Source: Sanchytrium tribonematis (Eukaryota). Taken from it: a stretch of 20,000 bases of DNA. Where the stretch lies: NCBI GenBank assembly GCA_018985235.1, contig JADGIG010000007.1, positions 46,116 to 66,115 of the forward strand. The letters run 5' to 3'. Positions 316 through 19,619 of this stretch are shown here, one piece after another. Position 1 is the first letter of the stretch. Each line of letters opens with the position of its first letter. Under the pieces are notes generated by a model. That model was not told where the DNA came from, did no database searches, and saw only the letters and a list, made by a program, of their open reading frames with translations. The position numbers and the translations under genes are program-made.

Positions 316-1432
316 ATGCCAAGTGAGATAAAGTCTGTCTTGATTACGGGAGGAACTGGCTTTGTAGGCCGACACTTAGTAGATTATCTATTAGACTCAG
401 GAATTACTGATATCAAAGTAGTTGACAAGTCATTACCTTCATTGTCTTGGCTAAATGAAAAACACAAATCTGCCTTGGGCAAAGTGCAGTTCGTTCAAGC
501 AAATTTATGTTTAGACAGCGGCGTAGCAAAAGTTTTTGATAAAAGTTACGATTTGGTTGTAAACTTAGCCTCGGAAACTAAATATGGCCAATCAGAAGAA
601 ATTTATAAAGAAAAAGTCCTTGATGTGGCTCTGAGAATAGCTAATGCAGCCGTCGGAAAGACGAAGGTATTTGTAGAGCTTTCTACCGGACAGGTTTATG
701 ACCCAAAAGACAAGCCGGTAAAGGAAAGTGGAAAAACTAAACCTTGGACAAAATTAGCAGAGTACAAATTACAAACCGAACAAGAGCTCTCCAAATTAGA
801 CTTAAATTTAGTGATTTTAAGACCAGCCATTATCTATGGTGTTGCTGATATTTATGGAATTACTCCCAGACTCATTATTGGTAAAGTCTATCAGCACATC
901 AAGGAAACTATGGAATTGTTATGGACTGGTGATTTGGCAATCAACACGGTTCATGTTACTGATGTTGTCCGTGCTATTTTGTTCACAGCCAGATACCACA
1001 TGCAGAAATTAGCAAAGGGAGAAATTTACAATTTAGCAGACAAAAGTAATTCTACGCAAGAAACTATTAATGCTCTATTGCAAAATATTTTCGGTATTAA
1101 AACTTCGTTTGTTGGATCTGTTGCTTCTCAGTTCGCTAAATTGAATTTGACTACTGTTGTTCAAGATGTGAACGAAAAACACATGGCACCATGGAGTGAA
1201 TTGTTGAAGAAGGAAGATTTAAACAGTTTTTAATTTTCATTTAGGTCATCTGACTCCATATTTGGATAAGGAGCTGCTTTATAACCACAGTTTATCTATT
1301 GACGGGTCAAAAATTGAAGACTTGAAATTGGATGGGGAATCATTTAAACTTAAGCATCCAAACATCAATGAGGCGTTACTTAAAGAAGTTGTGGATGACT
1401 TTAAACAATGCAAATTATGGCCAAGTGCTTAG
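316..1432 (+). CDS. NAD-dependent epimerase/dehydratase (extended SDR); join(316..1225,1245..1432), 365 aa
   Basis: Rossmann motif TGGTGFVG, LRPAIIYG and VHVTDV. Removing 1226..1244 continues in frame as ...LNSHLTPYLDKELLYNHSLSIDGSKIE...KLWPSA* to TAG at 1430-1432. Confidence 0.9.
1226..1244 (+). other. 19-nt spliceosomal intron (phase 1), GTTTTTAATTTTCATTTAG
   Basis: GT..AG ends. Contains the in-frame TAA that ends the ORF-track ORF. Excision restores a continuous C-terminus. Confidence 0.85.
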
Positions 1433-1444
1433 GAATAAATTTGT

Positions 1445-1756
1445 TTATTCATTAGACAACAAAAGATCTGATGAATCAGCGTCAGGCAATTGCTCTTTTA
1501 AAGTAGCGTCTTTCTCCATTTCAAATGCAATAGGAAGTGCGACAAGAATCATCGAGGACGCCAATACATACCCAAATTGCCCAAGATAATACCCGAGTGA
1601 TTTTGCGTGATCTGTACCTACGGTAATTATTTTTTCCATTCTATATCTTTTCATTGGTGAAACAATATCTTTTAGCGCCACAATTCTTTGCAATATTGTT
1701 TCATTGAATTCATCGTAATCAATATCTAAACGAGAATCTTCTCTCTGTCCTTTCAT
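1445..1756 (-). CDS. TOM22: Mitochondrial import receptor subunit Tom22
   Basis: Acidic segment then ETILQRIVALKDIVSP, followed by a TM segment GYVLASSMILVALPIAFEME with the conserved Pro. Start placed at ATG 1756 because the upstream ATGs overlap MTG1. Confidence 0.85.
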   Translation of the reverse strand: MKGQREDSRLDIDYDEFNETILQRIVALKDIVSPMKRYRMEKIITVGTDHAKSLGYYLGQFGYVLASSMILVALPIAFEMEKDATLKEQLPDADSSDLLLSNE

Positions 1757-1792
1757 GATTGGTTTGAAGGGGTTCACAGTTGTACTCTTTAA

Positions 1793-2710
1793 ATGTTTAG
1801 TCCTAGTTGGCGTCGCTTGAATCATTTTCCGTTTGAACTGTACCAGAAACCCGTGCATTCGTACCCTGGACATATTTATAAAGCCAGGTGGGAGCTTAAG
1901 AAAATTCTAAATCTTAAAGACACTCATCATGTAATTATTGAAGTACGAGACTCACGGGTGGCCACGATCGTACACCCAGACTTGGAACTTAATTATAATA
2001 ACTGTAAAAAAATTGTTTTATTTAATAAGTTGGATCTTATTGATGATACTTCTATTGCCAGTCTAAAAAGGAGATATCCAGACGCGATATTTATTTCAAA
2101 AATAAGAAGTTCAATGATAGATAGCATTGTTGATGTTAAAAATTCGATTTTCTCCCTAATGAATTGCTCGGATGAAGATCAAATACATGAGTTACCCTTA
2201 AAAAGATTAGTTCATGTTGTTGGGTATCCAAACGTTGGGAAAACCACTATTGTCAATCAGCTAAGAACATTGGCTTTGAAAAAGGGAAAGCAAAGAACTG
2301 CGAATAGCCCCGGAACGACAAGAATGATAGAAAAATTGAGGTTTTTCGAAAATCCCAAAATAGATCTCGTCGATTTTCCCGGAGTACTAGTTCCTCCAAA
2401 AGAAATGAGCCCCGATGAATCTCTAAAATTGTGCCTTGTGAATTCTTGTACACTTTCTGAACCCAACTTGGAGCTTTTGGTCCATTTTCTGTTGTATCAT
2501 ATAAAATGCTACGATTCAATGGCTTTAAGTCATTTAAAGATACCATTCGACACCTCGTCTATTAATTTTGATGATATCATGGAGAGCGTTGCAAATAGCC
2601 ATGGGTTTCTAATCAAAGGAGGTAGACCAAATGTTCAAAAGGCGATGACTTTTATTTTAAATAAGTACCGATCGGGATCAATGACGAAAATTCCATTGAC
2701 TTCGGTCTAA
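1793..2710 (+). CDS. MTG1: Mitochondrial ribosome-associated circularly permuted GTPase (RbgA/YlqF family)
   Basis: N-terminal YPGH, EVRDSR, G4 NKLD before G1 GYPNVGKT, G2 PGTT and G3 DFPG; C-terminal YRSG. The N-terminus is basic and presequence-like. Confidence 0.88.
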   Translation: MFSPSWRRLNHFPFELYQKPVHSYPGHIYKARWELKKILNLKDTHHVIIEVRDSRVATIVHPDLELNYNNCKKIVLFNKLDLIDDTSIASLKRRYPDAIFISKIRSSMIDSIVDVKNSIFSLMNCSDEDQIHELPLKRLVHVVGYPNVGKTTIVNQLRTLALKKGKQRTANSPGTTRMIEKLRFFENPKIDLVDFPGVLVPPKEMSPDESLKLCLVNSCTLSEPNLELLVHFLLYHIKCYDSMALSHLKIPFDTSSINFDDIMESVANSHGFLIKGGRPNVQKAMTFILNKYRSGSMTKIPLTSV

Positions 2711-2789
2711 GCTTTATTCATTTCAATAAACGAATGCTCTTTTTTGCTCTTTTTTGAACTTGTAGCAATAATCTCCAGTTTCAATTCTA

Positions 2790-3729
2790 ATGGCAACTTC
2801 GCAAACAATCGAAGTAATTGAAGTCGCATTTTCCGGAGGCCAAGGCAGAGATGGAGTCGAGTTTGGACCAGAGACACTTATTAATCATGGTTTGTTAAAT
2901 CAACTAAAAGGTCTTGGTTACAACGTTCAACACAATAAGTCTTTTAAAAATATTCCTAAACCCGAAAACGATCCAATTGTTGCTGGCTGTAAAAATTCAA
3001 AGTATGTATCCGCTGCAAACAAGAGTCTTTTCTCTGCTGTTAAACAAGCTTGTGAAGTTCATAAAACTACACTTGTAATCGGCGGAGACCATTCACTTGC
3101 TATAGGCTCAATTGCAGGCTCCGCAGCAGTTTATCCTGATATCTGTGTTATTTGGGTTGATGCACATGCTGATATTAATACTCCAGATACCAGTGGTAGT
3201 GGGAATCTACATGGGTGTCCATTGTCCTTCTTATTAAAGCTGCCATCTACGGAAAAAGTACCAGAATTGAGTTGGGTCCCAAAATGTTTATCTCCAGACC
3301 GACTGGTGTATATTGGACTCAGAGATGTAGATGAAGGCGAAAGAAAAATTTTAAAAGAGCACAAAATCAAGGCTTTTAGCATGCATGATGTTGACAAATA
3401 TGGCATAGGAAGAGTTGTTGAAATGGCATTGGACCACGTCAATCCGAAAAGGGATCTTCCTATTCATATGTCGTATGATGTGGATGCTTTAGACCCTACA
3501 GTAGCGCCAGCAACTGGTATATCTAATTTATTTAGGAACACCTGTAAGAGGTGGTTTGACTTTCCGCGAGGGTCACTATATAGCAGAGGCTATAGCAGAA
3601 ACCGGGAAATTAGTTGTAATGGACATCATGGAAGTCAATCCAATTTTGGCAATTCAAAAAACCGACGAACCTACCGCGACTGTAGCTTGTTCTTTAATTC
3701 GAGCGGCATTTGGTGAAACGTTGCTTTGA
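2790..3729 (+). CDS. CAR1: Arginase; join(2790..3516,3536..3729), 306 aa
   Basis: GGDHS, DAHADIN, SGNLHG and SYDVDALDP motifs. After splicing it reads APATGTPVRGGLTFREG...MEVNP...FGETLL*. Confidence 0.96.
3517..3535 (+). other. 19-nt spliceosomal intron (phase 1), GTATATCTAATTTATTTAG
   Basis: Excision restores the arginase motif ATGTPVxGG with no residue gained or lost. Confidence 0.95.
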
Positions 3730-3738
3730 TTCATAAAT

Positions 3739-4143
3739 CTATAAAATATGAGTAACTTGGGGCTTTTTCTTCTTAAAAATTGTAAATCTAAATAGCGATA
3801 GCATAATTGTCACGATGGACGCAACGAAGTGGATGCATACAAATGCCAAATAATACTTATTCAACCAAAATTTAAGCTCTGCGTTTGTTGTAAAGTTCTC
3901 AATAAATTCTTGATATGTTATAGTCATGTACAATTCGTATCCAATAGACAACAATCCCGCGGCCAAGTACACATATTGAAAGGCTTTTTTCCCTTCAAAT
4001 ATAATTGCTATAGCAAATATTGTCAATAGCAGCATCCAACTCAAAGCTGTAAAGAAAAAGGTCTGATAAATGAATAGGCTGCTCCCTATTTGAAAAAAAT
4101 GCATCATGAAGAGAAGCATAGTATAAATTGCAGTTGTCGTCAT
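3739..4143 (-). CDS. Hypothetical small multi-pass membrane protein (about 4 TM segments)
   Basis: 134-aa ATG ORF with four hydrophobic stretches and a basic C-terminal tail (FKKKKP). It fills the gap between arginase and the next gene. No family recognised. Confidence 0.6.
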   Translation of the reverse strand: MTTTAIYTMLLFMMHFFQIGSSLFIYQTFFFTALSWMLLLTIFAIAIIFEGKKAFQYVYLAAGLLSIGYELYMTITYQEFIENFTTNAELKFWLNKYYLAFVCIHFVASIVTIMLSLFRFTIFKKKKPQVTHIL

Positions 4144-4254
4144 CTAATCACGATGGGTAGTCTGTGATCTTTTGATCTTAGGCAAATATTTGCTGCCAAT
4201 CACATCAACAAACAGAACCTTGGATGATTGCACAAATGTTTTTTGCAACAAACT

Positions 4255-5640
4255 ATGGAATTTTCCAATACTTCCATTTATGTAGATGAAGACTCAATTG
4301 ATTTCATGCATTTAAATGGATGGCGTTTCACTAACTGCATATTTCATGACATTCAGTTTGAAAATTCCGGACTTAATCGAATGAATGATGCTATTGTTAG
4401 TGTCACTAACCGAACAAGATCAAATGTACTTGAGTTGCGTACAAATGATGAGGTTGACATATATACAGGAGAACCAGAGGATGGAGGATTTTACGTCAAA
4501 GATTTGGCTTTCGTAAAAATTTGTCACACTATATACCTAGTTCCCAGAAATCAATGGAGATCCAAATTAAAGCATTTCGCAAGAAATAATCTATTTTTGT
4601 TTGATTTTACCGAAAAATTTCCATTTACCTTAGATTATTCACCGTCAGAGCCCGGAAATACTGCATTAATTTTAATGAGAAGAGAATTTGATGGTCTGCC
4701 TTTTTTACTGGAGCCCCTATCTTTATTAAGTTGTATCTTTAAAAATCTGAGAGTGGGAAGATACAACGTTACGCGGCAATTACAAAATAATGAACAAGCT
4801 ACATTACAAGGCATCAATAATGATATTATTTGGGAAATATTAGAGGAGTTGTTGGAAAATGACACGACGTCATTACTAAATTATCCCTCTAAGGTCCAGT
4901 CGCAGTTGACCAAGTTGCGGAAGTGGATTATTGATAACGCGCAAATAGTAGGTGCAGATATTAAAGTTCCTAAAATATTAGCCAAGGTTTCCATATCTCA
5001 GCTTAAGAAATTTTCTCTGTATTTATATGGAAAGAACCACTTCAATACATTGTATCCTATGTCTAGCTTAGTTTTACTAATAATTGAAAGTTTCGAATAT
5101 ATACTGGAGGAAGAAGTATCAAATGAGAAATCTTTATTACAAATATTCAACACTGAACCCTCAAAACTGATTGATTTTTCCATGAATAATACAAAATTGA
5201 GAAATTTGGCTTCTCACTTATTGTGTTTACCTCTTCCGGGTTGTGATTACAATACAAAAGTTTTATTGGAGACGGAGCATGAGCTCAAAATTAATCTAGA
5301 TTTTAATCAAAGGTCCAATTTTTTAGTATCACAGTGGTATTCATTGCTCTGCCAATACCAGTGTATTAACGACATTACTTCCGAAAGCACTTATATTTGG
5401 GAACGAATTCAAAAATATCTATGTAAATCTTTCGTTTCACCAAATTCAATAAGAGATATAGCACACAATTTTGCATCTTATTTGTCGACACCTCAAGTGG
5501 CATTGCCTAAAAAATTTGACAAAGTGATATTTGTTTTTGAGAACGGAATGAGTATCGATGAAGCCCACTCCTTAAAGGAAATTTCGAAAAAATACAGTTT
5601 GTCTGAACAACTTATATGCATTACTGACCAGATACTATAG
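4255..5640 (+). CDS. Divergent Sec1/Munc18-like protein, SCFD2/MIP3-like
   Basis: Long ORF, first ATG at 4255. The segments SIYVDEDSIDFMH, ALILMRREFD, LTKLRKWIIDNAQIVGADIK..KVSISQL and C-terminal VIFVFENGMSIDEA..LICITDQIL parallel SCFD2 motifs recalled from memory (VVYLD..LH, VVFVDRTLD, EVRRHLVEAA..LPIK..RVTPGQL, LFVVGGVTVSEV..VIVLSTRLL). Confidence 0.55.
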   Translation: MEFSNTSIYVDEDSIDFMHLNGWRFTNCIFHDIQFENSGLNRMNDAIVSVTNRTRSNVLELRTNDEVDIYTGEPEDGGFYVKDLAFVKICHTIYLVPRNQWRSKLKHFARNNLFLFDFTEKFPFTLDYSPSEPGNTALILMRREFDGLPFLLEPLSLLSCIFKNLRVGRYNVTRQLQNNEQATLQGINNDIIWEILEELLENDTTSLLNYPSKVQSQLTKLRKWIIDNAQIVGADIKVPKILAKVSISQLKKFSLYLYGKNHFNTLYPMSSLVLLIIESFEYILEEEVSNEKSLLQIFNTEPSKLIDFSMNNTKLRNLASHLLCLPLPGCDYNTKVLLETEHELKINLDFNQRSNFLVSQWYSLLCQYQCINDITSESTYIWERIQKYLCKSFVSPNSIRDIAHNFASYLSTPQVALPKKFDKVIFVFENGMSIDEAHSLKEISKKYSLSEQLICITDQIL

Positions 5641-5698
5641 TCTAAAAATAATTTACTCTATAATTAAAACTTCAATAAAAATCATTATCAAACAAGGG

Positions 5699-6136
5699 AT
5701 GAGATTTCCATCTGTACAATTATTAGCTAAAAAATACAACATAGATTTAAGCAAGGTCAAAGCAAGCGGATTCAAAAATTCTTTGAATAAGGGAGATATA
5801 TTATCATACATAGATCAAAATAATCTTTTACCAACTTTTAAATTGACAAATGACCATTCCGAATACTATCGTATATCACGAAATAGACGAGTAAGCCCAT
5901 TAGAAATTAATTCTTTTGAAAAATCGACAAATTCCAAGGTCAAGATTAGATATAACAATTATTCGTTTGCGGATATTCCGTTGCAATTACAAAAACAAAA
6001 TTGGTTTTCAATTTTAACAAGCCCCAAAAATCCAAAATATGAGCAGCCTAGCTCAGTTGAAACAATTTTGATGATTGACAGCCAATATAAGAATGTAGCA
6101 GAAGAGGTTTTTGTAGAACACAAAATAAAAAATTAA
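5699..6136 (+). CDS. Small protein with an N-terminal E3-binding (peripheral subunit-binding) domain; PDH protein X-like
   Basis: PSVQLLAKKYNIDLSKVKASGFKNSLNKGDILSYI matches the PSBD pattern PxxRxLxxExxIDLxxVxGTGxxGRIxKxDV. No lipoyl or acyltransferase domain is present. Confidence 0.65.
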   Translation: MRFPSVQLLAKKYNIDLSKVKASGFKNSLNKGDILSYIDQNNLLPTFKLTNDHSEYYRISRNRRVSPLEINSFEKSTNSKVKIRYNNYSFADIPLQLQKQNWFSILTSPKNPKYEQPSSVETILMIDSQYKNVAEEVFVEHKIKN

Positions 6137-6147
6137 GAAACCCTGAT

Positions 6148-7509
6148 ATGAAACTTGATTCTAAATCTAGCAAAATTTTTAGCAGGAGATATTTATTACG
6201 CCCTACTCAACTTGATTTAAGAATACTGGCACAGCAACCTAACTCATTGTGGGGCTTCTATGTACTATTTTGGTTTTCTGGAGTTCTATTAATTTGTTTG
6301 ACAATGTATAGTAATTTAAAGCTAGAGAAATCTATAATAGGATCTTACTTATTTAAATTAAGCTTGAGCAATTTTCCAGAGGTAGTTTTATTCGATTTGG
6401 TGATGGTTTTAAGTACCAGTTTTTGTTTTTTCTTACAAAAACTAATTGCTACTCAAACAATAAGCACAAAAGGGGGATCCTTTTTGCAAAGGGTTTTTGA
6501 AATTTCTTTTATTGGTTGTTTTAATTATTATATATATAAACAAAATTGGAATTGGGCAAGTTCTGGCGCAACTTGCGTACATTCTATAAGTATTTTGTTT
6601 AAGATGCACTCCTACAACATTGTGAACATTAGACTCATGGAGCAATACAACTTAAAAAAAAAGTTGATACAGGCGGAAAAAAAGGAAGATGCTAATGTAG
6701 CAGAGCAAATTGCCGAGATAGACAAAATACTTACAATAGAAGTTCCACACGACCTGGAATTTAATGGGTTTGATGCTTCACCAATTAGTGAAGAATCAGT
6801 GAAATTTAGGATATGTTATCCTGAAAATGTGAATATCTCAAATTTTGTAGACTATTTGATAGTTCCCACACTGTCATATGATATCGCGTATCCCAGAATG
6901 AAATATGTACGTCCTTTATACATTTTCGAAAAGGTGGTAGAGTTTATAGGCACGTGCTTCTGTTTATACGTAATTCTAGAGAACTACACAATCCCACCAT
7001 TTTCGGAATCACACAGGTCATTTGTTGATCTGCTACTAGTTTTATGTACGCCTTTCATGGCTTGCATGCTTCTCACATTCAATATTATCTTTGAAGTAAT
7101 TTGTAATGTATGTGCTGAGGTCACAAAATTTGCAGATCGCGGTAATTTTTACAGCGACTGGTGGAATAGTGTTAACTATTTAGAGTTTAGTAGAAAATGG
7201 AACAAACCCGTCCATAATTTTTTATTTCGACATGTGTACCTCGAATGTTTACAAGTGATGGGATTTTCAAAAGGTCTCTCAAGATTTATAACTTTTTTTA
7301 TTTCTGCACTATTTCATGAGCTAGTTTTTGTTGTACTTTTTAAAGAAATCAAATGGTACATGTTTGTAATTCAAATGCTCCAAATTCCATTAATAGCTTT
7401 TCAAGAACTCCCTCCGATTAAAAAATTTCCAGTCGCTGGTAACGTTCTATTTTGGTTTGGGATGTACTGTGGACTACCTTTATTATGTGTTGCATATAAC
7501 AAACTTTAA
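6148..7509 (+). CDS. ARE2: Sterol O-acyltransferase (MBOAT, ACAT/Are1-Are2 family)
   Basis: FKMHSY, YPENVNISNFVDYLIVPTLSY, FYSDWWNS, WNKPVHNFLFRHVY and the catalytic His in SALFHE; multiple TM segments. Confidence 0.88.
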   Translation: MKLDSKSSKIFSRRYLLRPTQLDLRILAQQPNSLWGFYVLFWFSGVLLICLTMYSNLKLEKSIIGSYLFKLSLSNFPEVVLFDLVMVLSTSFCFFLQKLIATQTISTKGGSFLQRVFEISFIGCFNYYIYKQNWNWASSGATCVHSISILFKMHSYNIVNIRLMEQYNLKKKLIQAEKKEDANVAEQIAEIDKILTIEVPHDLEFNGFDASPISEESVKFRICYPENVNISNFVDYLIVPTLSYDIAYPRMKYVRPLYIFEKVVEFIGTCFCLYVILENYTIPPFSESHRSFVDLLLVLCTPFMACMLLTFNIIFEVICNVCAEVTKFADRGNFYSDWWNSVNYLEFSRKWNKPVHNFLFRHVYLECLQVMGFSKGLSRFITFFISALFHELVFVVLFKEIKWYMFVIQMLQIPLIAFQELPPIKKFPVAGNVLFWFGMYCGLPLLCVAYNKL

Positions 7510-7518
7510 ACATAAAAT

Positions 7519-8076: not shown

Positions 8077-8105
8077 TGAAGTTGGTGTTTTAAAGTGCCA
8101 ATTTA

Positions 8106-10476: not shown

Positions 10477-10516
10477 TAGTATTTATAGACACTCAATAAT
10501 AAATTCAGTGCAATTG

Positions 10517-11245: not shown

Positions 11246-11283
11246 CAAATTTAATATATAGCAGTAATTTCAAGGAGTTGCAA

Positions 11284-13198
11284 ATGTTAAATTATTTGTC
11301 TGCGGCTTTTAACGCATTTGGTATAGGCAATTTTAAAAGCCAAGTAGTTGGCACTCTCTATGAAAAAATCAACAAGCTATCTGTAAAATTCAAAGATTGC
11401 GAGTTAGAAGTTCAACAGCATTCAAATAATCTTTATCAGTTGGTTATCAGCAAAATTTATGATCAAGATGAAGAGTTTTCAGATTTTGATGAGTATGTTA
11501 TCCTTCTTCGCTCTGAAATAGAATTAAAAGAGACTTCGGGAGGCTTCACTTGGATTGATGATGGGATTGAAATGGTTTTTATGACAAAAGACTCCAGTAT
11601 CCTTCAAAAGCTTCAAAATCACATAAATATTTATGAGGATGATAAAATGAAAAGCAAGTCAATTTATATTGAAAGTGCTCAAAATACGGCTCCTTTAAAT
11701 ATATCTGGAGACGTCATGCTCTCTTGCGGTATTAATTTATTTACCTTTAACGTGAAAGATTCACTATTTGAGCCAATATCAGAAAAAGAATTCAAATTAG
11801 AAGTCGTAAAAAGTCAAACAGGATCTTTTATGAAAATCAGTGGCGAACATGACATCTGCACCAAAATTGAACATTCTATGAATCCCTACTTCAGTCAAGA
11901 AAAGTGGTGCTTTTTGTGGAACCATTTTGATAAAGTCTTGGTGAGTATGGCGGCTGTCTTCTCACCTAAGGATTACTCAACGTTTAGATCCATACTACAG
12001 AGAGTCTTAATTGAACAACAAAATCTGTTAATCACTCCAGATGAGATCCAGTACGCTCAGTCTGCTCTAATTGCTGAAGATATGGCATATGAAGAAGGAG
12101 TTACTGCAGATGATAGCTCTAGCTCTGAGACTGAGTCCGAGCCTGATTTGATCGGAGAGGCCAATGTTGCAAAAGATAGAAATAACAAGCTTACAACTTC
12201 TCTCAGAAATTATAAAGCATTTGTTAGCAGGGGTGATAAAATTGACTCGTACGACACAAATTCTAAAGTTCAGAAATTAAGGACAAATTCTTCCAATTTT
12301 ACTCCTGACAACATACATCTGCATGAAAATGAACGGAAGCTTCTAATGTTTGACAAAAATCGCGTCTCTTCTATGGATTTGGAGACCGGAAAAGTGGTTG
12401 AGGAATGGGATGCTCCTAAAAATTTGAGAGGAATTAGTTCTTTGACCAAATCGTCTCAATTAACCAATGAACAACAATTTTATGGAATAACCAATAATGA
12501 TGTGTTACTAATGGACCCTCGATCAAGAAATTTGGCTTCACAGACCACATCTTACAAGTCAAACCCAAATTTCACTGCAATTAAGACAGGCGGCAAGGAT
12601 GATCAGATTGCAGTGGCAAATGAGCAAGGAGAACTCAAATTATACAACAAGTTAGGAATTCGTGCTAAGACAAATCTAAAGCTAGCTGGAGGTATTTATT
12701 TTTAATGAAGAACCAATATTAAGTTTAGATATATCAGAGAATGGGGCTTGGATAGTAGCGACTTGCAAGACTTTTCTAATGTTGATAGAGGCTGATCACG
12801 AATCCACAAGTGGTTTTTCAAAATCAATTCCAGTTAAACACAGGAAACCACCTATTAGACTTACCATTCGACCTGATCATGCAATGCAGCTAGGCCTTCA
12901 GAAAGTCAATTTTACTCCGGCCAGATTTGATACAATTAATGGCAAGGAAGAGAAATACATCGTAAGTAGCACAGGAAATTATCTTATAGCATGGTCGCTA
13001 AAGAAAGCGAAGTTAGGTAGGAATGATTATCAAATCAAAAAATATTCAGAAACAATAGTCGGAGAACAATTTCACAAACCAGGACAAGTTGTCGTGGCCT
13101 TATCGAATCAATTGGTACTAGCCAACAAACGAAATTTTATGACCCCAAAAAAGATTTTTGCGGATCGTGACAGCGTCACTAAATCTTATAATAAATAA
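11284..13198 (+). CDS. VID27: Vid27/CYPRO4-like protein; join(11284..12691,12711..13198), 631 aa
   Basis: MDLETGKVVEEW, DPR and GELKLYNKLGIRAKT. After splicing it reads GEPILSLDISENGAWIVATCKTFLMLI, then FTPARF and IVSSTGNYLIAW. Confidence 0.9.
12692..12710 (+). other. 19-nt spliceosomal intron (phase 1), GTATTTATTTTTAATGAAG (AAG acceptor)
   Basis: Excision joins the two ORF-track pieces in frame and restores the Vid27 G[DE]PI motif. Contains an in-frame TAA. Confidence 0.9.
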
Positions 13199-13201
13199 TT
13201 A

Positions 13202-13888
13202 CTAACTTAATAATTTTTTTATTTCGTTCCTATTCAAAGGAACCGCTGGACTTTGCGTTGATTTGATAAAAATTTGCTTAATAAAATTATTTTCCAGTGT
13301 GGTTCCACTGAGCTCATTAACATATTTAAACAAGGAAGAAAGATTACTCTTGATTTTTTGAAAATCCAAATTAGTGTCACCCAATACAACATCAACTATG
13401 CCATTATTGTCTATCATTTTGGAAGATTTCCTAGAAATATCGATGGCCGCTTGAAGGTCTCTAGTCACTGTACCTTTCTTGGTGCTCGGCATTAAATTTT
13501 TTGTACCAAGATATTTACCCAATTTGGTGAGTTCTTTAAAGTTGCTTTCATAACAAATCAAGTTTGTAAATTCATGTTTAGACACATCATCCAAATCAGA
13601 TATTTTAATTTCAGCATCAGTCTTATTTATAACATCCAGTGGCCCATACACCGCTACAACTGATTTTTTCGCTTTAAAATATTCCAGAGGGAGTGTACTA
13701 GTCAATTTTATCCTTTTGAACATTTTTGTATTGTACATAAAAGTCACATTTACCACTTCAGTATCAGTCGCGAAAGCCTTGACCATCAAGTAAGCATCCT
13801 CGATGGTCGCGTTTGGTTTATCTAACTTCTTCAGAAGTCTACTTCTGCTCCTGTGTCCACGTAATAAATTAAATTTTCGAAGAAACAT
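13202..13888 (-). CDS. MRPL1: Mitochondrial ribosomal protein uL1m
   Basis: LGKYLGTKNLMPSTKKGTV and IKQIFIKSTQSPAVPL match L1 motifs. The Arg-rich N-terminus MFLRKFNLLRGHRSRSR looks like a presequence. First ATG at 13888. Confidence 0.85.
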   Translation of the reverse strand: MFLRKFNLLRGHRSRSRLLKKLDKPNATIEDAYLMVKAFATDTEVVNVTFMYNTKMFKRIKLTSTLPLEYFKAKKSVVAVYGPLDVINKTDAEIKISDLDDVSKHEFTNLICYESNFKELTKLGKYLGTKNLMPSTKKGTVTRDLQAAIDISRKSSKMIDNNGIVDVVLGDTNLDFQKIKSNLSSLFKYVNELSGTTLENNFIKQIFIKSTQSPAVPLNRNEIKKLLS

Positions 13889-13903
13889 GGAGGTTTTCAA
13901 AAT

Positions 13904-15766
13904 TTATTGAATATTTCTCGACGATAGATATTTGATAATAAATTCATTTATGTCGCTTGGATTATCGATCCATTTTGATTCATCCATAGATACACAGCGC
14001 CAGCCAGAAATCCCATAAAATTTAGGTCTGGGATAGTTCAGATTCGTTATTTCACCATAATCTTGGTAACCTTGAAAATTGCTCGATGAGATTTCTCCTG
14101 CATATTTTATGAGGTTTGCATGAAAGAAGGAAGCCTCGCCGTCCATATAATGCACCATGGCATGTCCGCATTTATACTGCTTGTAAACAAAGCCATACGA
14201 TTTCATGAAGGATGGCTCTATGAATATTGTGTTCATTAGGTACTTTGCAGACCATCTCACTACATCCTTGTCACCAAAAAAGAAATCCATCCAAAATTTA
14301 TGGTCCATCAAGATCAAATAAGAGAGAACTAAAGTCTGTAAATGTTGACTTTTGTTAACCAGCCATTGCCCAGCCTCAATTTCCAATTCATTCATACATT
14401 GTACCTCAAATATATCGAAAATAGGATTTTCAAAGTTGGTTTTCCACATATCTTGAAATAATACGAGCCCGTGCTCCAGGTAATTTCTATTTAGAAAAAG
14501 AGATGAAGGGTCTTTAATAGGGGTGCAATCTGAATCCAGATACAAAATGTTTTCGAAATTGCTTGCCAAAATGGCGGCAAGTTTGTAGTGATAGTTATTT
14601 TTAGCCTCTGAAGTTAATTCAATTCCAAGAAGCCCAATTTTCGAGAGAGAAATTACATTAACATTGGAAACTTGTTCCAGACTTTTTTGGTTGGTTGAGT
14701 TGATTTCATTAAAATGAAAGACTTGAATTGGCAGAGTAGATTTAAGTTGCTCACGAATAAATTTTACATTAAAATAAGTTTCATTGAAAACATTGTCGTA
14801 CGAAAGCATTACAATTCCTTGTTCTCTCGTGCTTTTGGGTAATGACTGTAAGGAATCCTTGTTCAGCAAACTCAAATATTTTTTCAGCCTTATTTTACCT
14901 TCAAAAATAATTTCATCTCTATTTCTCCATAAATACGAAGATGGCTTTCCATCAATTTGGTACGAAGGTACATTTCCACAGCCATTGATACACAAGTTAG
15001 ACTTTTGTTTAAGAATTCTGAGATAAAATTCCGGTAAAGAAAGTGCTTCACTTTCAAAGTCATTACAACTTTTGCTTGAATTAAAATTCATGTAACCTTT
15101 TGGTATCTTCTTAAACGAATTCACAGAGCCAATATGTTCATTCGAAAGCCCAGTAATTTGCTGAATTATTAATGGTTTCGAATTTAACATATATACCATA
15201 GAAAATCCACAAAATTTTAATACATGCCTTCCAACCAAATGAGAAGGCTCCAAAATTGGAGTGACCAAAGATTTTAAAAATTCGTTATATGTCATACTAC
15301 TTTTGAATTCTCTTTCAAAAATTTCAATGTCCAGAACGATTGAATACTGGCCTTCTAGAATCCCAAATCTTATTGAACGTTTTTTGCTGAATAGTTCATG
15401 CTGAATTATTACTCTTGGATTTCCAAGAAATTGAAAATTAGGACTTAAAATAAAAAGCTGTGAGCATTTTTTTTCAATTGCCCTAGAATACAAATTTATA
15501 ATTTCTATAAACTCTATGCTATGTGCATCAAACGTGTCAGTTCTTAAAGGATGGCCATTTGGTAATACAAATGCATGATCAATATAATTTGCTAGAAAGT
15601 AATCGTTTAGATAATTGAAAAGGTAAGAATTATTTTCTTGAACCAAACATAAGACTTGTTTCTTCCTTCTTAGGAAAGAATTCGATTCTTTCTCAGCCAT
15701 GTTTTGTGGTAATAATGCCATAATTGATAAAATAATGACTATGGAATAAAGGATTTTAGTATACAT
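13904..15766 (-). CDS. Golgi alpha-mannosyltransferase, GT71 (Mnn1/Mnn2 family), type II membrane protein
   Basis: N-terminal signal anchor, then QGIVM, LPIQVF, YKLAAILASNFENILYLDSD (DxD), QDMWKT, EAGQWLVNK and GDKD. First ATG at 15766. Confidence 0.88.
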   Translation of the reverse strand: MYTKILYSIVIILSIMALLPQNMAEKESNSFLRRKKQVLCLVQENNSYLFNYLNDYFLANYIDHAFVLPNGHPLRTDTFDAHSIEFIEIINLYSRAIEKKCSQLFILSPNFQFLGNPRVIIQHELFSKKRSIRFGILEGQYSIVLDIEIFEREFKSSMTYNEFLKSLVTPILEPSHLVGRHVLKFCGFSMVYMLNSKPLIIQQITGLSNEHIGSVNSFKKIPKGYMNFNSSKSCNDFESEALSLPEFYLRILKQKSNLCINGCGNVPSYQIDGKPSSYLWRNRDEIIFEGKIRLKKYLSLLNKDSLQSLPKSTREQGIVMLSYDNVFNETYFNVKFIREQLKSTLPIQVFHFNEINSTNQKSLEQVSNVNVISLSKIGLLGIELTSEAKNNYHYKLAAILASNFENILYLDSDCTPIKDPSSLFLNRNYLEHGLVLFQDMWKTNFENPIFDIFEVQCMNELEIEAGQWLVNKSQHLQTLVLSYLILMDHKFWMDFFFGDKDVVRWSAKYLMNTIFIEPSFMKSYGFVYKQYKCGHAMVHYMDGEASFFHANLIKYAGEISSSNFQGYQDYGEITNLNYPRPKFYGISGWRCVSMDESKWIDNPSDINEFIIKYLSSRNIQ

Positions 15767-15810
15767 AAATTTAAAGGTCACGTCGCTAAAAAGTTACAGT
15801 TTATTTTGAT

Positions 15811-18040
15811 TCAATTGGCCGACCCTGGAGTTCTAAGCTCTATCACACAGTCATCGGATATAGTTTCAGGAAGTAAAGGAATATCTTTAGACTCAAAAAT
15901 TTTGTCAAAATTTTCAATCAAGAATGTCACAAAGTCATTTGGCTGATTGTCGAAAAAATTGTTAGGATCGTCCTTGAGCTTTATAAGTGTTGGCCCAAAA
16001 ACAATGCCGATATTCCTAGGATTCATTTTATTATATTCTTCAAAAGAAGCTACCCTAAATTAGATCAATTTACCTTTGCAGATGTTGAATAAGGTAGTAT
16101 AATGTATAGTAATGAGATGGTAGTAATTTTTTAATGGAATTTTTAAAAAAGATTAACGAATCATCGGAAGGTTTAGGTTCCTTGAGAATATATACTGTTG
16201 TTTCATATATGTCTGTAGAAATAAGTGGGATTTTCAAATCTCGGAAATAAGCTTTTAAAAGAGACGATACTGAAAGAACGTCGATGAGATCATGCGCCAT
16301 GTCAATGGTGTTACCTTGTTCCCACTCATCTTGCATATTCTTCATTTCCTTCATCGCACCAGCCCTTCGATAAATTCCCTCAGTTTTTAAACCTTTTTCA
16401 TCAACAACTCTCAAACAAGCAGTTACAATATTAGGAATTGGTTTGCCCTCGAAGTCCGCTCTTTCTTGCAAAAATCCACCGAAGAGGACAACTTTTTGTT
16501 TCTTTAACTTAGCAATAGCCAAGCCTTTCAATTGTTTTGCACGCAAAGATCCCTCCATGAGTCTTAAAGTTTTAGCTCTGTTAATATCTTGTGGTTGATC
16601 GTCTTCATCTTGTTTTTGCTTTTTGATAAGATTATTTGCTTTGTCTCTCCAAAACTCTTTCTTGCCTTTATCTTCAGCTAAATTACTGTTTGAAACATTC
16701 TCGAGACTTTCCCTAGAGCCTTTGGCGTCTATATCATGTTCTCTTGGTGATTCAGGACTTGTTGGTTGCTGAAATTTTTCAGATTTTTTAGCTGTACTTA
16801 CTACTTCATTTTGTCTGAACTTACAGACTTCGTATTCCTTTACTTTTTCACGAATTTCTGTCAGAATTGTGGCTTTGTCGGCAATCAAGGATTTAATTTC
16901 GCTAGTTAAAGTATTTTTTTGCTCTTCCAATGGTGCCAGTAACGATAACAATTTCGCTATTTCGGAGTCGGATGCGATAACTCCATTTTCAGCTCTCTTT
17001 CTCAACATTTCTTGTAAGACTTTACACTGCTTCTCAGACTGATTTCTCAAATTTTCCTCATATTTAGAGTCAGATTTTTGTTTTTCAAGTTCTGAAAGCT
17101 TGACATGCAATTCACCAATGAGTAGCTCATATTTGAGCTTCAAATTATTGTAATCGGAGGACTTGTCTTCTTTTTCTTTAGCTATAATTTCATGTTGTTT
17201 TTTTATTCCACTGATATTTATTTCCAACGACCTTAATTTCTCCAAGTCAAACCTATGCTCTTCTCTTTCTTTATCCAAATCTTTTACTACTTTAATAAAT
17301 TCGTTGTCCAAAGTTGATAATTGCATTTGAAGCCTAGAGACTTTTTCTAATTGGATTTGTAAGGATATTTCTAAATCTTTCTTTGATTGAGTTAATTGCT
17401 TGAGTTCTTTGCCAATTTCTGAATTAAAAGAACTCAGTTGCTGTTTCGTTTTGGTTTCTGACTCGGCAGTGTTTTTAAATCCCGATAATTGTAGTTCATA
17501 AGAATGAATTATTTGTCTTGATTCATCAAGTTGTTTTTCAACTTGAATTTTAGACTGTCTTACCAACATTAATTCATCTTTTAGCTCTTGCAACTGGTCT
17601 TCCAAGTAGGATTTAGTTTGCTGAAGTTCTGAAAATTCCTCAATTGTGCAAGAATTTTTTTTCAATTCATCAAGATGATACAATGCTTCTCTGTATCGAA
17701 CTTTCTCTAATTCCATGCTATGTTTATAATGATCGAAATCCTCTAAAGCCTTACGACTCAAGTCTTTCAATTTTTTCAGCTGTTCTTGGAGCTCTATATT
17801 CAAGGCTTGTGATTTTTGAAGTTCTTTTTTAGCATGTTCGTGCTCCTCATTGCGAGATTGCTTCGGAACCTCTGTTGTTTTAAGAAAACTCATCATATCT
17901 TCTTCCAAAGAGCCAATATTGATGTTCATATTCAAATCATTAGCTTTGAAGTTTGTACTTTGAATATCATTTATATGTGATTTCGACTTTCTAGCAGTAG
18001 ATGCGCTAGTTGAAGACCTTTTGACAGGTTTTTCTTCCAT
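15811..18040 (-). CDS. Coiled-coil protein with C-terminal RhoGAP domain; complement(join(15811..16054,16074..18040)), 736 aa
   Basis: IPNIVTAC, EGIYRRAG (arginine finger) and LLKAYFRDLKIPL. After splicing it reads HLQRVASFEEYNKMNPRNIGIVFGPTLI. Long heptad-rich N-terminal region. First ATG at 18040. Confidence 0.9.
16055..16073 (-). other. 19-nt spliceosomal intron (phase 2), GTAAATTGATCTAATTTAG
   Basis: Excision restores the RhoGAP HLxRV..NKMxxxNxxIVFGP spacing. Contains a textbook CTAAT branch motif. Confidence 0.95.
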
Positions 18041-18092
18041 GATTAAAAAGCCACGAGTCTCAAATTTTTTAATATGGAGAAACTTTGAAATA

Positions 18093-18410
18093 ATGTCACA
18101 AACCAAGCTACAAAAGCGAGAAATAACTCAACTAAAGAAAAATATACTACAATCTGAGAGTAAGATTTCGGAAGAAAAACGGCTACGAGATTTTACCCCA
18201 GACTTGATAAATGAAGAGATACAAAAATGGACGAATATCATATTGGATGTATATTTGGAAATTAAATCTTTTTTATTGGATGACCAGGTTACAGAATTAA
18301 AAGACTATATTAATCGATATTGCATTTCTAATGATTTGAGATTGCTTGCCTCAGAATTGGGGTTTGTAGAATCGGAAAATGACTCCGATCGTAATTCAGT
18401 CGTAGAATAA
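18093..18410 (+). CDS. Small coiled-coil protein, possibly Sfr1/Mei5 family
   Basis: ATG at 18093, 105 aa. A coiled coil followed by LINEEIQKWTNIILDVYLEI...LKDYINRYCIS resembles the Sfr1/Mei5 C-terminal L..LI.KW pattern. Assignment tentative. Confidence 0.4.
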   Translation: MSQTKLQKREITQLKKNILQSESKISEEKRLRDFTPDLINEEIQKWTNIILDVYLEIKSFLLDDQVTELKDYINRYCISNDLRLLASELGFVESENDSDRNSVVE

Positions 18411-18415
18411 ATAAT

Positions 18416-19619
18416 TTATTCAATTTTCAAATCCTTCAAATTCATTTCCCACGGAAACTCTTCTCTGCCAAAATGCCCATAAGCCGCGGTTTTTTGATAA
18501 ATAGGCTTAGTTAATCCAAACTCTTGTACAATTTTACCCGGTCTTAGATCATAGTTTTTCTTAATTGTACTTAAGAGCTGGCTGTTGCTATATTTTGAAG
18601 TACCATAAGTATCGATAAAAATAGAAACAGGTTCAGCCACACCAATTGCGTATGAAACTTGAACCAACGCCCTTCTAGCCAATTTTGAATTAACAATTGA
18701 TTTTGCAACATGTCTAGCAGCATATGCAGCAGATCTATCTACTTTTGACCAGTCTTTCCCTGAAAAAGCGCCGCCACCATGTGCACCCCTAAATAAAAAT
18801 AATGTACCAACCACCATAAGTATCTACAATGATTTTTCTACCAGTAAGCCCGGCGTCTCCTTGTGGCCCTCCTATTACGAATCTTCCAGAAGGTTGTAAG
18901 TGGAATTTGGTTTTTGCATCTAAATATTTCTCTGGAACTACCGGTTTAACAATTTGTTCCAATAAATCTTTCCTTAGCTGTTCAACCTTAACAGTATCCG
19001 TGTGTTGCGTTGAAATAACTACAGCATCGACTCTTAATGGGATACATGCACCATTGTCCATTGTATATTCAACTGTAACCTGAGTTTTAGTATCAGGTAA
19101 TAAATAAGGAATAGAACCGTCTTTTCTACACTTTTCTAATTGCATATTGAGTTTGTGGGCCAATGTCATAGAAAGAGGCATTAATTCAGGAGTCTCGTCG
19201 GTGGCATATCCGAACATAATTCCTTGATCGCCAGCACCAATTTTTTCAATGTCGAAACCTTCTTGAACAAGTCCCTGTGCAATGTCTGGAGATTGCTCTT
19301 CAATAGCAACTAAAACATTGCAAGTTTTGTAGTCAAAGCCAAAGTCGGAGTCAGTATATCCAATATCCTTGATTACAGCTCGAATGACTTTCTGGTAGTC
19401 CAATCTAGTCTTTGTATTGATTTCTCCGAAAACCATTACCATTCCCGTCTTGGTTGCAGTTTCGCAAGCGACCTTGCTGTACGGATCTTCCTTTAAACAA
19501 GCGTCTAAAATGGCATCGCTAATTTGGTCGCAAATCTTATCAGGGTGGCCTCTGCCGACGGATTCACTAGTGAATAAAAAGGTTTCGTTTGATGTAGCAG
19601 TCATGTGTGTAGAATGCAT
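18416..19619 (-). CDS. SAM2: S-adenosylmethionine synthetase; complement(join(18416..18788,18808..19619)), 394 aa (alternative start 19604)
   Basis: FTSESV..GHPDK, GAGDQG and [17 protein letters not shown]. After splicing it reads [18 protein letters not shown], then YGHFGR. Confidence 0.97.
18789..18807 (-). other. 19-nt spliceosomal intron (phase 2), GTACATTATTTTTATTTAG
   Basis: Excision restores the conserved [17 protein letters not shown] exactly. Confidence 0.97.

What the first reader, a model, noticed from the sequence alone, without database searches (positions are those of the whole stretch)
1226..18807. Seven of seven detectable introns are exactly 19 nt: a fixed-length, ultra-short intron system in a fungal-type genome
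Seen in sequence: introns at 1226-1244(+), 3517-3535(+), 8171-8189(-), 9471-9489(+), 12692-12710(+), 16055-16073(-) and 18789-18807(-) are all GT..AG and all 19 nt. Each restores a conserved motif to the residue (ATGTPV, FDEAIRAV plus CAAX, EPAGSHGVW, GEPI, HLQRV, GGWGAHGG). Established knowledge: introns this short are known from heterotrich ciliates (Stentor, 15-16 nt) and chlorarachniophyte nucleomorphs (18-21 nt). Microsporidian introns start in the low 20s and typical fungal introns are over 40 nt. Inference: this lineage independently evolved a spliceosome that measures a fixed length. I do not know of this being described in a fungus. Gene predictors with the usual minimum intron of 20 nt or more would split or truncate these genes, so it could easily have been missed.
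Basis: partly seen in the sequence, partly recalled or inferred. Interest (0 to 1): 0.95.

Follow-up and report, generated by a model that had tools for sequence, protein, structure and literature searches.

The report
Fixed 19-base introns in a fungus
Seven genes in this extremely compact, chytrid-like fungal DNA are each interrupted by a GT...AG segment of exactly 19 bases that is predicted to be spliced out, which would likely be the shortest and most uniform intron set known from fungi or animals, although no RNA data were available to show the splicing.

Summary
All seven segments are GT..AG and 19 nt. They sit at the only seven frame breaks among 19 complete gene models. Removing them joins the exons residue-exactly in 7 of 7 genes (Pfam positions; Rac1 1-171 and 173-192; epimerase alignment).

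The bare GT-N15-AG pattern is at chance level (111 found, 101 expected), so position carries the signal, not the motif.

Position 14 is A in 7 of 7 introns, leaving a 5-nt tail before the only AG. Stentor's 15-nt introns have the same tail (PMC9505925).

Protein fragments of unnamed relatives break at the same PTPA codon in 3 of 3. In the two cases where length can be read, only 19 nt fits.

Named best hits are zoosporic fungi.

No RNA run and no genome were available, so splicing and genome-wide dominance of 19 nt remain predicted.

This is a new member of a known kind: nucleomorph 18-21 nt, mikrocytid 16-17 nt, heterotrich 15-16 nt. I found no description for a fungus. The scan noted tiny-intron regimes on other DNA (Rozella 26-31 nt), none at 19 nt.

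The parts
1226..1244 (+). 19-nt intron 1 (GTT...TAG), phase 1, in an NAD-dependent epimerase/dehydratase-family gene (CDS 316-1432)
   Evidence: Sequence. It is the weakest donor, GTT with A at -1. Exon 2 (61 aa) has no Pfam hit. The spliced product aligns through the junction with 12 of 12 full-length homologs, P0245 and others.
3517..3535 (+). 19-nt intron 2, phase 1, in the arginase gene (CDS 2790-3729)
   Evidence: Sequence. Pfam Arginase profile 3-222 lies in exon 1 and 224-277 in exon 2.
8171..8189 (-). 19-nt intron 3, phase 1, in the Rac-type small GTPase gene (CDS 8106-8703)
   Evidence: Sequence. Exon 1 aligns to human Rac1 residues 1-171. Exon 2 aligns to residues 173-192 of 192, including the CAAX end.
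9471..9489 (+). 19-nt intron 4, phase 1, in the PTPA (phosphotyrosyl phosphatase activator) gene (CDS 8846-9857)
   Evidence: Sequence. PTPA profile runs 1-180 | 182-292. ORF fragments of 3 of 3 relatives break after the same ..LEPAG. The tail of P0244 fits only a 19-nt intron.
12692..12710 (+). 19-nt intron 5, phase 1, in the VID27 gene (CDS 11284-13198)
   Evidence: Sequence. VID27 profile runs 2-184 | 190-347.
16055..16073 (-). 19-nt intron 6, phase 2, in a coiled-coil RhoGAP gene (CDS 15811-18040)
   Evidence: Sequence. RhoGAP profile runs 1-119 | 121-146.
18789..18807 (-). 19-nt intron 7, phase 2, in the S-adenosylmethionine synthetase gene (CDS 18416-19619)
   Evidence: Sequence. S-AdoMet_synt_C profile runs 1-22 | 24-137. 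Relative P0122 carries an intron of the same inferred length at the same site. One substitution and no indel is seen in the contigs of run X1 (18803).
16678..16696 (-). Intron-like 19-mer (GT..T12..A14..TTTAG) on the sense strand inside RhoGAP exon 1; a decoy, since the ORF reads through it
   Evidence: The gene model is intact without removing it.
13313..13331 (-). Second sense-strand decoy 19-mer, inside the ribosomal-L1-family gene
1..20000 (.). Gene-dense context: 21 gene models (19 complete), about 94% coding. Spacers are 3-182 nt, and the longest-ORF models of one divergent pair (Tom22 and the MTG1-like GTPase) overlap by 81 nt. G+C is 34.6%.

Best explanation
The seven 19-nt GT..AG segments are very probably genuine U2-type spliceosomal introns that are predicted to be cut out of the mRNAs of seven unrelated genes, in a fungal clade whose introns appear to be held at (or overwhelmingly near) 19 nt.

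Shown directly:
- Their sequence, their length and their place at every frame break in the window.
- The residue-exact joining of the exons.
- Conservation of one intron position in three relatives.
- A length of 19 nt in the two relatives where it can be read.

Inferred mechanism. The intron is too short for separate, flexible recognition of its signals, so the spliceosome likely reads it as one unit of fixed geometry.
- The donor is GTA (6 of 7), with T at position 6 (6 of 7) and no G at +5.
- A yTnAy element sits at positions 11-15. Its invariant A14 is predicted to be the branch point.
- That would give a 14-nt lariat loop.
- The acceptor would be the first and only AG, 5 nt further on.

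The 5-nt tail equals that of Stentor's 15-nt introns. The total of 19 nt equals the modal length of chlorarachniophyte nucleomorph introns. Both fit convergence on a physical limit of the spliceosome.

Because 19 = 3n+1, a retained intron always shifts the frame. In 6 of 7 genes it meets a stop within 15 codons, so unspliced messages would make truncated proteins.
For: - Anatomy: 7 of 7 are GT..AG and 19 nt. A14, T12, A18 and G19 are invariant. A3, T6, T15, T16 and T17 each occur in 6 of 7. G at -1 occurs in 6 of 7 and G at +1 in 5 of 7. Each intron has exactly one AG. Introns are 81% A+T against 65% for the window. An A at one given inner position in all seven has P = 2.4e-4, or 3.7e-3 after correction for 15 positions.
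- Junctions are supported by homology in 7 of 7 genes.
- These are the only frame breaks in 19 complete gene models.
- With a filter for A+T richness and for the branch-like A and T, 19-mers number 11. Every other length from 14 to 40 numbers 0 to 5.
- PTPA in relatives: fragments P0242, P0243 and P0244 (43-47% identical) all end just after ..LEPAG. In P0244, 9 of 9 tail residues fit an out-of-frame reading of the conserved exon-2 start placed exactly 19 nt after the donor. Among 200,000 random tails, 0 fit.
- SAMS in relatives: the exon-2 ORF of P0122 (93% identical) starts 10 residues before GAHGGG. This is consistent only with a 19-nt intron at the same codon, although the intron's own residues differ.
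- The window and relatives P0002-P0004 form one clade with 100/100 support on a long stem among fungi. P0003 and P0243 share a contig, so the MBOAT-PTPA linkage is conserved.
- DNA contigs of run X1 carry all seven segments, with 0 indels and 0 joints over the 20 kb. This run may be the source of the window, so it is not independent.
- Literature: Stentor's branch A at position 10 of 15 gives a 5-nt tail (PMC9505925, passages read). 19 nt is the commonest nucleomorph intron length, 68.8% in B. natans (PMC4035089, passages read).
Against: - The introns have not been shown to be removed from RNA.
- There is no whole genome, so dominance of 19 nt rests on 7 introns here plus 2 inferred in relatives. 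The one-sided 95% lower bound on the share of 19-nt introns is 0.65 (7 of 7) or 0.72 (9 of 9). Under a 68.8% share, 7 of 7 has P = 0.07.
- Detection by frame break cannot see in-frame 18- or 21-nt introns that lack a stop, UTR introns, or a tiny first exon.
- The sequence motif alone does not separate introns from background (16 against 10.5 expected).
- Two look-alike 19-mers lie unspliced, judged by the ORF, on the sense strand of coding exons. What distinguishes real introns is therefore not explained.
- The branch-point role of A14 is a prediction. One intron (PTPA) has A at both positions 14 and 15.
- The lengths in relatives are deduced from overlapping reading frames of protein fragments, not read from DNA.
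Confidence: 0.82

Rival explanations
1. The introns are real, but the seven identical lengths are a local sample of a wider distribution. Genome-wide, 19 nt would be only one of several common lengths (for example 18-30 nt or more), and no special length constraint would exist.
For: - The sample is only 7 introns plus 2 inferred.
- A nucleomorph-like share of 68.8% would give 7 of 7 with P = 0.07.
- Introns whose length is a multiple of three and that lack a stop cannot be seen by frame breaks.
- One undecidable 18-mer lies at 6004-6021 in a gene of unknown family.
Against: - No frame-breaking length other than 19 (16, 17, 20, 22, 23 and so on) occurs in 19 complete genes.
- The length is kept at 19 in two relatives whose intron residues differ and whose PTPA exon is only 43% identical.
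- The filtered count peaks at 19: 11 against at most 5 for any other length.
Confidence: 0.1
2. The segments are not removed at all. The seven genes would be frameshifted pseudogenes, or the 19-nt pieces would be sequencing or assembly artefacts.
For: No RNA evidence is available. The only DNA run that holds the stretch may be the source of the window itself.
Against: - Seven independent 'errors' would all have to be 19 nt, GT..AG and A+T-rich, each sitting exactly where a conserved protein needs one codon restored.
- The exons downstream stay open and conserved.
- The same break occurs in three other organisms' PTPA and in one other organism's SAMS.
- A separate assembly of run X1 shows 0 indels there.
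Confidence: 0.02
3. The segments are removed or skipped by another route. Candidates are DNA elimination as in ciliate IESs, Ire1/HAC1-type or tRNA-type endonuclease splicing, or translational bypassing.
For: A 19-bp unconventional Ire1-dependent intron exists in Candida albicans (search listing only, PMC8044019). The splicing machinery could not be examined here.
Against: - GT..AG ends in 7 of 7, a G|GT exon context and a branch-like A are the marks of spliceosomal introns.
- Seven unrelated housekeeping and signalling genes are affected, not one stress-regulated mRNA.
- From recall, ciliate IESs are TA-bounded.
- The DNA contigs of run X1 show no joined form.
Confidence: 0.03

Closest known systems
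Chlorarachniophyte nucleomorph introns (Bigelowiella natans, Lotharella oceanica, Gymnochlora stellata)
   Same: GT-AG ends, A+T-rich, a narrow 18-21 nt range with 19 nt the commonest length (654 introns, 68.8%, in B. natans; 49.1% in L. oceanica; PMC4035089). They lie in an extremely gene-dense genome, and a 'caliper' model has been proposed for them (PMC6009652).
   Different: - Those lie in a relic green-algal nucleus of about 370-610 kb. Here the setting is an ordinary nuclear gene set with fungal affinities (arginase, Rac, RhoGAP, VID27, sterol acyltransferase).
- No branch A is discernible there. Here A14 is invariant.
- There are about 3 introns per gene with 58-59% in phase 0. Here there are 7 introns in 19 complete genes and 0 of 7 are phase 0.
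Heterotrich ciliate introns (Stentor coeruleus, 15-16 nt)
   Same: Near-fixed length, A+U-rich, and a branch A at a fixed position that leaves a 5-nt 3' tail (position 10 of 15; PMC9505925). The tail here is the same, A14 of 19.
   Different: - These introns are 4 nt longer between donor and branch, giving a predicted 14-nt loop against 10-nt.
- G at exon position -1 is usual here (6 of 7) but not in Stentor.
- The host is a fungus with a tiny compact genome, not a giant free-living ciliate.
Mikrocytid introns (Mikrocytos mackini, Paramikrocytos canceri; 16-17 nt)
   Same: Exceptionally narrow size range (217 of 224 at 16 bp) and conserved intron sequence, in a reduced parasite genome (PMC10245619).
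   Different: - Mikrocytids are rhizarians with extremely divergent proteins and a spliceosome of only 17-19 proteins.
- Here proteins are well conserved. By my count from the alignment printed, Rac exon 1 matches human Rac1 at 154 of 171 residues.
- The length is 19 nt.
- Beyond GTA and yTnAy the intron sequence is not conserved.
Short introns of other opisthokonts: Microsporidia (23-24 nt and up), Rozella (26-31 nt per earlier notes of this scan), myxobolid myxozoans (median 22-27 bp) and Dicyema
   Same: Convergent intron shrinkage in compact, often parasitic genomes. These are the nearest cases by phylogeny (PMC13644364 abstract and introduction; scan notes).
   Different: - All are longer and, except in Microsporidia, more variable.
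- From recall, microsporidian introns are few, 5'-biased and have strong extended signals.
- Here introns lie at 63-89% of the CDS length in 7 of 7 genes.
Paramecium introns (average 25 nt)
   Same: Tiny introns in a very gene-dense genome, and the idea that a retained intron should break the frame (PMC8997360 abstract in the listing; the frame-shift argument is recalled from Jaillon et al. 2008).
   Different: Paramecium lengths range over about 20-34 nt (passage) and are not a single value.

Membership tests
U2-type (GT-AG) spliceosomal intron | GT at the 5' end and AG at the 3' end | tested here: met
   7 of 7.
U2-type (GT-AG) spliceosomal intron | Interrupts a coding sequence, and removal restores the conserved protein without gain or loss of residues | tested here: met
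   7 of 7. Pfam positions are contiguous across the junction. Rac1 residues 1-171 and 173-192 are matched. The epimerase alignment runs through the junction.
U2-type (GT-AG) spliceosomal intron | Branch-point adenosine in a yUnAy-like element upstream of the acceptor | tested here: inconclusive
   A14 is invariant, T12 is invariant and position 11 is a pyrimidine in 7 of 7. This fits yTnAy, but n is only 7 in an A+T-rich sequence and no lariat data exist.
U2-type (GT-AG) spliceosomal intron | Absent from mature mRNA | not testable with these tools
   No RNA run holds the stretch.
U2-type (GT-AG) spliceosomal intron | Spliceosomal snRNAs and proteins encoded by the genome | not testable with these tools
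   No genome is held. The window has 0 Rfam hits.
Fixed-length ultra-short intron regime (heterotrich / mikrocytid / nucleomorph type) | Introns about 15-21 nt long | tested here: met
   19 nt in 7 of 7.
Fixed-length ultra-short intron regime (heterotrich / mikrocytid / nucleomorph type) | Genome-wide length distribution confined to a span of a few nt (2 nt in heterotrichs and mikrocytids, 4 nt in nucleomorphs) | tested here: inconclusive
   7 of 7 in the window, plus 2 of 2 readable cases in relatives. There is no genome-wide sample. The 95% lower bound on the share of 19 nt is 0.65-0.72.
Fixed-length ultra-short intron regime (heterotrich / mikrocytid / nucleomorph type) | A+T-rich intron interior relative to exons | tested here: met
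   81% against 65%.
Fixed-length ultra-short intron regime (heterotrich / mikrocytid / nucleomorph type) | Length conserved between species while intron sequence drifts | tested here: met
   SAMS: P0122 keeps the same length and differs at 2 of 5 intron-encoded residues. PTPA: P0244 keeps the same length and differs at 4 of 5. Both are inferred from protein fragments.
Microsporidian-type short introns | Length of 23 nt or more, few per genome, 5'-biased (the 5' bias and strong extended donor are recalled) | tested here: not met
   Length is 19 nt. There are 7 introns in 19 genes. All lie at 63-89% of the CDS. There is no G at +5.
Fungal lineage (Holomycota) as host | The best homologs of ordinary nuclear genes are fungal | tested here: met
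   The best named hits for the MBOAT gene are Blyttiomyces, Synchytrium, Powellomyces, Sorochytrium and Polyrhizophydium at 37-40%. The clade sits among fungi on a long stem in a single-gene, midpoint-rooted tree. Its phylum was not resolved.

The most novel reading that the evidence does not exclude
A whole clade of zoosporic-grade fungi (the window's organism and at least three unnamed relatives) runs a 'caliper' spliceosome that accepts essentially only 19-nt introns. The intron would be built as a 14-nt lariat loop plus a 5-nt tail.

This clade reached independently the same 19-nt optimum as chlorarachniophyte nucleomorphs and the same 5-nt tail as Stentor. That would point to a universal geometric minimum of the spliceosome's active site rather than to lineage-specific accidents. 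It would also be the shortest intron class in opisthokonts.
Probability: 0.5. Interest if true: 0.85.

Novelty: new member of a known kind. Interest (0 to 1): 0.72.

Why it matters
1. It would add a further independent lineage, and the first fungal one, to the very few with fixed-length introns under 20 nt. Because it shares 19 nt with nucleomorphs and the 5-nt branch-to-acceptor tail with Stentor, it makes a question testable: do these numbers reflect a physical limit of the spliceosome?

2. The host proteins are well conserved (Rac exon 1 aligns to human Rac1 over all 171 residues). Its spliceosomal proteins should therefore be easy to compare with yeast and human structures, unlike those of mikrocytids or nucleomorphs.

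3. There is a practical consequence. Gene sets made by ORF calling, or by predictors with a minimum intron of 20 nt or more, split or truncate about a third of the genes here (7 of 19). Public entries already show this.
- P0243 is labelled 'type:complete' but ends in the intron.
- P0121 and P0122 are 133-aa tails of SAM synthetase.
Inferences of gene loss or 'reductive evolution' drawn from such proteomes would be biased.

The one genome paper on small A+T-rich zoosporic fungi that I read (sanchytrids, PMC8371127) called ORFs with TransDecoder. It does not discuss spliceosomal introns in the main text or in the 9 supplements that could be searched; one further supplementary file, a PDF without text, could not be read. 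I did not establish whether the window belongs to that group.

Tried and rejected
- Whole genome: none is held. No genome-wide histogram and no snRNA or spliceosome inventory could be made.
- RNA evidence: no RNA holder is listed. The only holder is DNA run X1, with a share of 0.97.
- Relatives' DNA, metagenome scan with the MBOAT alignment: 80 loci were kept, but none was a close relative; the best segments were 55% identical or less and generic fungi. I did not use them further.
- Relatives' DNA, scan of prokaryote genome contigs with the PTPA alignment: 6 pattern matches, 0 confirmed.
- Rfam on the window gave 0 hits. tRNA search gave 0.
- The protein atlas on SAMS exon 1 returned only generic SAM synthetase clusters.
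- Earlier notes of this scan: none for this genome or for look-alike stretches.
- My first enumeration of alternative splice pairs was too permissive and was cut off. It lists many frame-restoring GT/GC..AG pairs that delete conserved residues. I rely on the profile and homolog coordinates instead.
- Hidden in-frame introns: the 15-mer at 2015-2029 lies in the GTPase's NKxD-like motif (motif name recalled), so it is coding. The 18-mer at 6004-6021 is undecidable.
- A nucleomorph origin was considered and rejected because of gene content and fungal best hits.
- A U12-type intron was rejected because there is no extended donor consensus (the consensus is recalled).
- Literature searches for 19-nt or ultra-short introns in fungi found nothing pertinent. 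One search was badly posed and swamped by unrelated hits.
The question was answered with exon references instead.

Full report
**What is in the window.** The 20-kb window has 34.6% G+C and is almost entirely coding. I could model 21 genes, 19 of them complete, covering about 94% of the bases. Spacers are mostly 3-150 nt.

Gene identities from Pfam are:
- an NAD-dependent epimerase-family protein
- Tom22
- an MMR_HSR1-type GTPase
- arginase
- a sterol O-acyltransferase (MBOAT)
- an EF-hand protein
- a Rac-type GTPase
- PTPA
- a Gar1/Naf1-like protein
- VID27
- a ribosomal-L1-family protein
- a mannosyltransferase
- a coiled-coil RhoGAP
- S-adenosylmethionine synthetase
- ATP synthase subunit e
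- several proteins without a family

**The observation.** Removing them, and nothing else, gives an intact reading frame in all 19 complete gene models. The window has no other frame break.

I tested the junctions with unchanged exon pieces.
- Pfam profile positions run on across the junction with exactly one position left for the split codon in arginase (222|224), PTPA (180|182), RhoGAP (119|121) and SAM synthetase (22|24). VID27 comes close, at 184|190.
- Rac exon 1 aligns to residues 1-171 of human Rac1. The 20-residue exon 2 aligns to residues 173-192, the very end of the 192-residue protein.
- For the epimerase, whose exon 2 has no Pfam match, a search of 1.84 billion representatives gave full-length homologs of about 365-380 residues. 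The product spliced in a script aligns through the junction with 12 of 12 of them, including a conserved PLSPYLD..ELL..N...DGS.IE block that lies wholly in exon 2.

So 7 of 7 junctions are supported by homology.

**Is it more than chance?** The bare pattern is not. GT-N15-AG occurs 111 times on the two strands against 100.7 +/- 10 in shuffles. Even with the extra T12 and A14 it occurs 16 times against 10.5 +/- 3.4.

The signal is positional. Each of the seven frame breaks is bridged exactly by such a 19-mer. At about 0.003 per position and about ten admissible donor positions per break, that is roughly 1e-11 for seven (my arithmetic).

When candidates of 14-40 nt are filtered for A+T richness and for the branch-like A and T, length 19 gives 11 hits. 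Every other length gives 0-5.

**Anatomy.**
- The donor is GTA in 6 of 7 (GTT once), with T at +6 in 6 of 7 and never G at +5.
- Position 11 is a pyrimidine, T12 and A14 are invariant, and T15, T16 and T17 each occur in 6 of 7.
- The terminal AG is the only AG in every intron.
- The exon side has G at -1 in 6 of 7 and G at +1 in 5 of 7.
- The introns are 81% A+T against 65% for the window.

An invariant A at one inner position has P = 2.4e-4, or 3.7e-3 after correcting for 15 positions. I read positions 11-15 (yTnAy) as the branch site with A14 as the branch point. This would give a 14-nt loop and a 5-nt tail, and it is a prediction.

**Relatives.** No genome is held for the window and no close relative's DNA could be fetched. 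The protein database, however, holds ORF fragments of related, unnamed organisms.

The MBOAT protein has three relatives at 59-63% identity: P0002, P0003 and P0004. The next best hits are named chytrids and a blastocladiomycete at 37-40%. In a single-gene tree the window and these three form a 100/100 clade on a long stem among fungi.

For PTPA, three fragments of 205-223 residues (P0242-P0244, 43-47% identical) all stop a few residues after the same ..LEPAG at which the window's exon 1 ends. The intron position is therefore shared by four organisms.

P0243 lies on the same contig as the MBOAT relative P0003, so gene linkage is conserved too.

In P0244 the read-through tail is long enough to measure the intron. 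After seven residues (one split codon, five intron codons and an AG-containing Arg) come nine residues. Each of these is compatible with an out-of-frame reading of the conserved exon-2 start (9 of 9). Among 200,000 random tails, 0 were compatible. The only other informative length that could be tested, 28 nt, fitted 1 of 6; 43 nt rests on the stop codon alone.

For SAM synthetase, P0122 (93% identical over exon 2) begins ten residues before GAHGGG, as the window's own fragment does. Its first three residues are the frame-shifted reading of the conserved YGGW. This again fixes the intron at 19 nt at the same codon, while two of the five intron-encoded residues differ.

These lengths are deduced from overlapping reading frames, not read from DNA.

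**DNA check.** Contigs of the one public run that holds the stretch (X1, coded; possibly the window's own source) cover all 20 kb. They show 15 substitutions, 0 indels and 0 joints. One substitution falls at position 5 of the SAMS intron.

**What could not be shown.**
- No RNA run is listed, so removal from mRNA is predicted, not observed.
- Seven introns, or nine with the relatives, bound the share of 19-nt introns only at 0.65 or more (0.72 or more) at 95%. A nucleomorph-like share of 68.8% would still give 7 of 7 with P = 0.07.
- In-frame 18- or 21-nt introns without a stop, UTR introns and very short first exons would escape detection by frame break.
- Two intron-like 19-mers lie on the sense strand inside exons (13313-13331 and 16678-16696) and are evidently not removed, judged by the ORF. 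I cannot say what tells the spliceosome apart real introns from these. The weaker GTT donor and the lack of G at -1 may contribute, but the epimerase intron shares both features.

**Comparison with what is known.** Fixed-length introns below about 21 nt are described from three kinds of genome.
- Heterotrich ciliates. In Stentor, 92.8% are 15 nt and the rest 16 nt, with the branch A at position 10 and hence a 5-nt tail (PMC9505925, passages read).
- Mikrocytids. 217 of 224 introns are 16 bp and the rest 17 bp (PMC10245619, abstract and passages).
- Chlorarachniophyte nucleomorphs. The range is 18-21 nt, no branch A is discernible, and a 'caliper' model has been proposed (PMC6009652, passages). 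19 nt is the commonest length, 68.8% in B. natans and 49.1% in L. oceanica (PMC4035089, passages).

Among opisthokonts the shortest classes I found described are the following:
- myxobolid myxozoans, median 22-27 bp, and Dicyema (PMC13644364, abstract and introduction)
- Microsporidia
- Rozella at 26-31 nt, per earlier unchecked notes of this scan

The present case works like the Stentor type (fixed branch A, 5-nt tail) and has the nucleomorph's modal length. It sits, however, in an ordinary nuclear genome of a fungus with well-conserved proteins.

**Is it in print?** Five full-text searches found no description of 19-nt or comparably short fixed-length introns in a fungus. Papers outside the library cannot be excluded.

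The genome paper on sanchytrids describes small (4-5 times smaller than other zoosporic fungi), about 35% G+C genomes annotated by TransDecoder ORF calling. It does not mention spliceosomal introns in its text, and nine of its supplementary files gave only functional-annotation hits for 'splic' and 'intron'. One PDF supplement could not be read (PMC8371127). I did not establish whether the window belongs to that phylum.

**Verdict.** The introns are real by every sequence-based test available, and their length is conserved across a clade. The splicing itself, the genome-wide distribution and the 'measuring' mechanism remain predictions. It is a new member of a known kind, of real interest to people who work on splicing and on early fungal genomes.

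Noticed in passing
window, all seven intron-bearing genes: All seven introns lie in the 3' part of their coding sequence, at 63-89% of the CDS length. None is in phase 0: five are phase 1 and two are phase 2. If positions were uniform, all seven beyond 0.63 has P of about 0.001, and 0 of 7 in phase 0 is also unusual (my arithmetic). This is the opposite of the 5' bias recalled for intron-poor genomes. I have no explanation.
   Followed up: partly
window 1-20000: Compaction is extreme: about 94% coding. Convergent stop codons lie 3-5 nt apart (VID27/L1 at 13198/13202; unknown gene/SAMS at 18410/18416). Same-strand neighbours lie 9-29 nt apart. The first ATG of the EF-hand ORF (8121) lies inside the last Rac exon. 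UTRs must overlap neighbouring genes, as in microsporidia and nucleomorphs.
   Followed up: partly
window 13313-13331 (-) and 16678-16696 (-): Two 19-mers carry GT, T12, A14 and a terminal AG on the sense strand inside exons (L1-family gene and RhoGAP exon 1). The ORFs read straight through them. They may be cryptic sites that are avoided or spliced at a low level.
   Followed up: no
window 8133-8706 (Rac gene): In run X1 a separate 570-nt contig matches 8137-8706 with 4 substitutions and runs into unlike sequence at both ends. Other contigs break at 8133-8166 and 8677-8706. This suggests a second Rac copy or allele. Its 19-nt intron shows no difference.
   Followed up: no
proteins P0123-P0137: SAM synthetase C-terminal fragments from other unnamed, apparently A+T-rich organisms (73-75% identical) begin with intron-like read-through just before ..SGWGAHGGG. 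That points to an intron about 6 nt upstream of the window's site, in the first Gly codon of YGGW. It is a neighbouring intron position in another lineage, not the same one.
   Followed up: no
proteins P0121, P0241, P0243: Public protein collections already contain the truncated products of ORF calling across these introns. One of them is labelled 'type:complete' although it ends in intron read-through.
   Followed up: partly
window 6004-6021 (+): An 18-nt GT..AG segment that is A+T-rich and has the branch-like A lies in frame, without a stop, inside the 145-residue gene whose only family match is an E3-binding domain. It could be a hidden in-frame intron or plain coding sequence. No homolog was available to decide.
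   Followed up: no
window 18803: The contigs of run X1 differ from the window at 15 single bases with no indel. One difference falls at position 5 of the SAMS intron (A to G on the coding strand).
   Followed up: no
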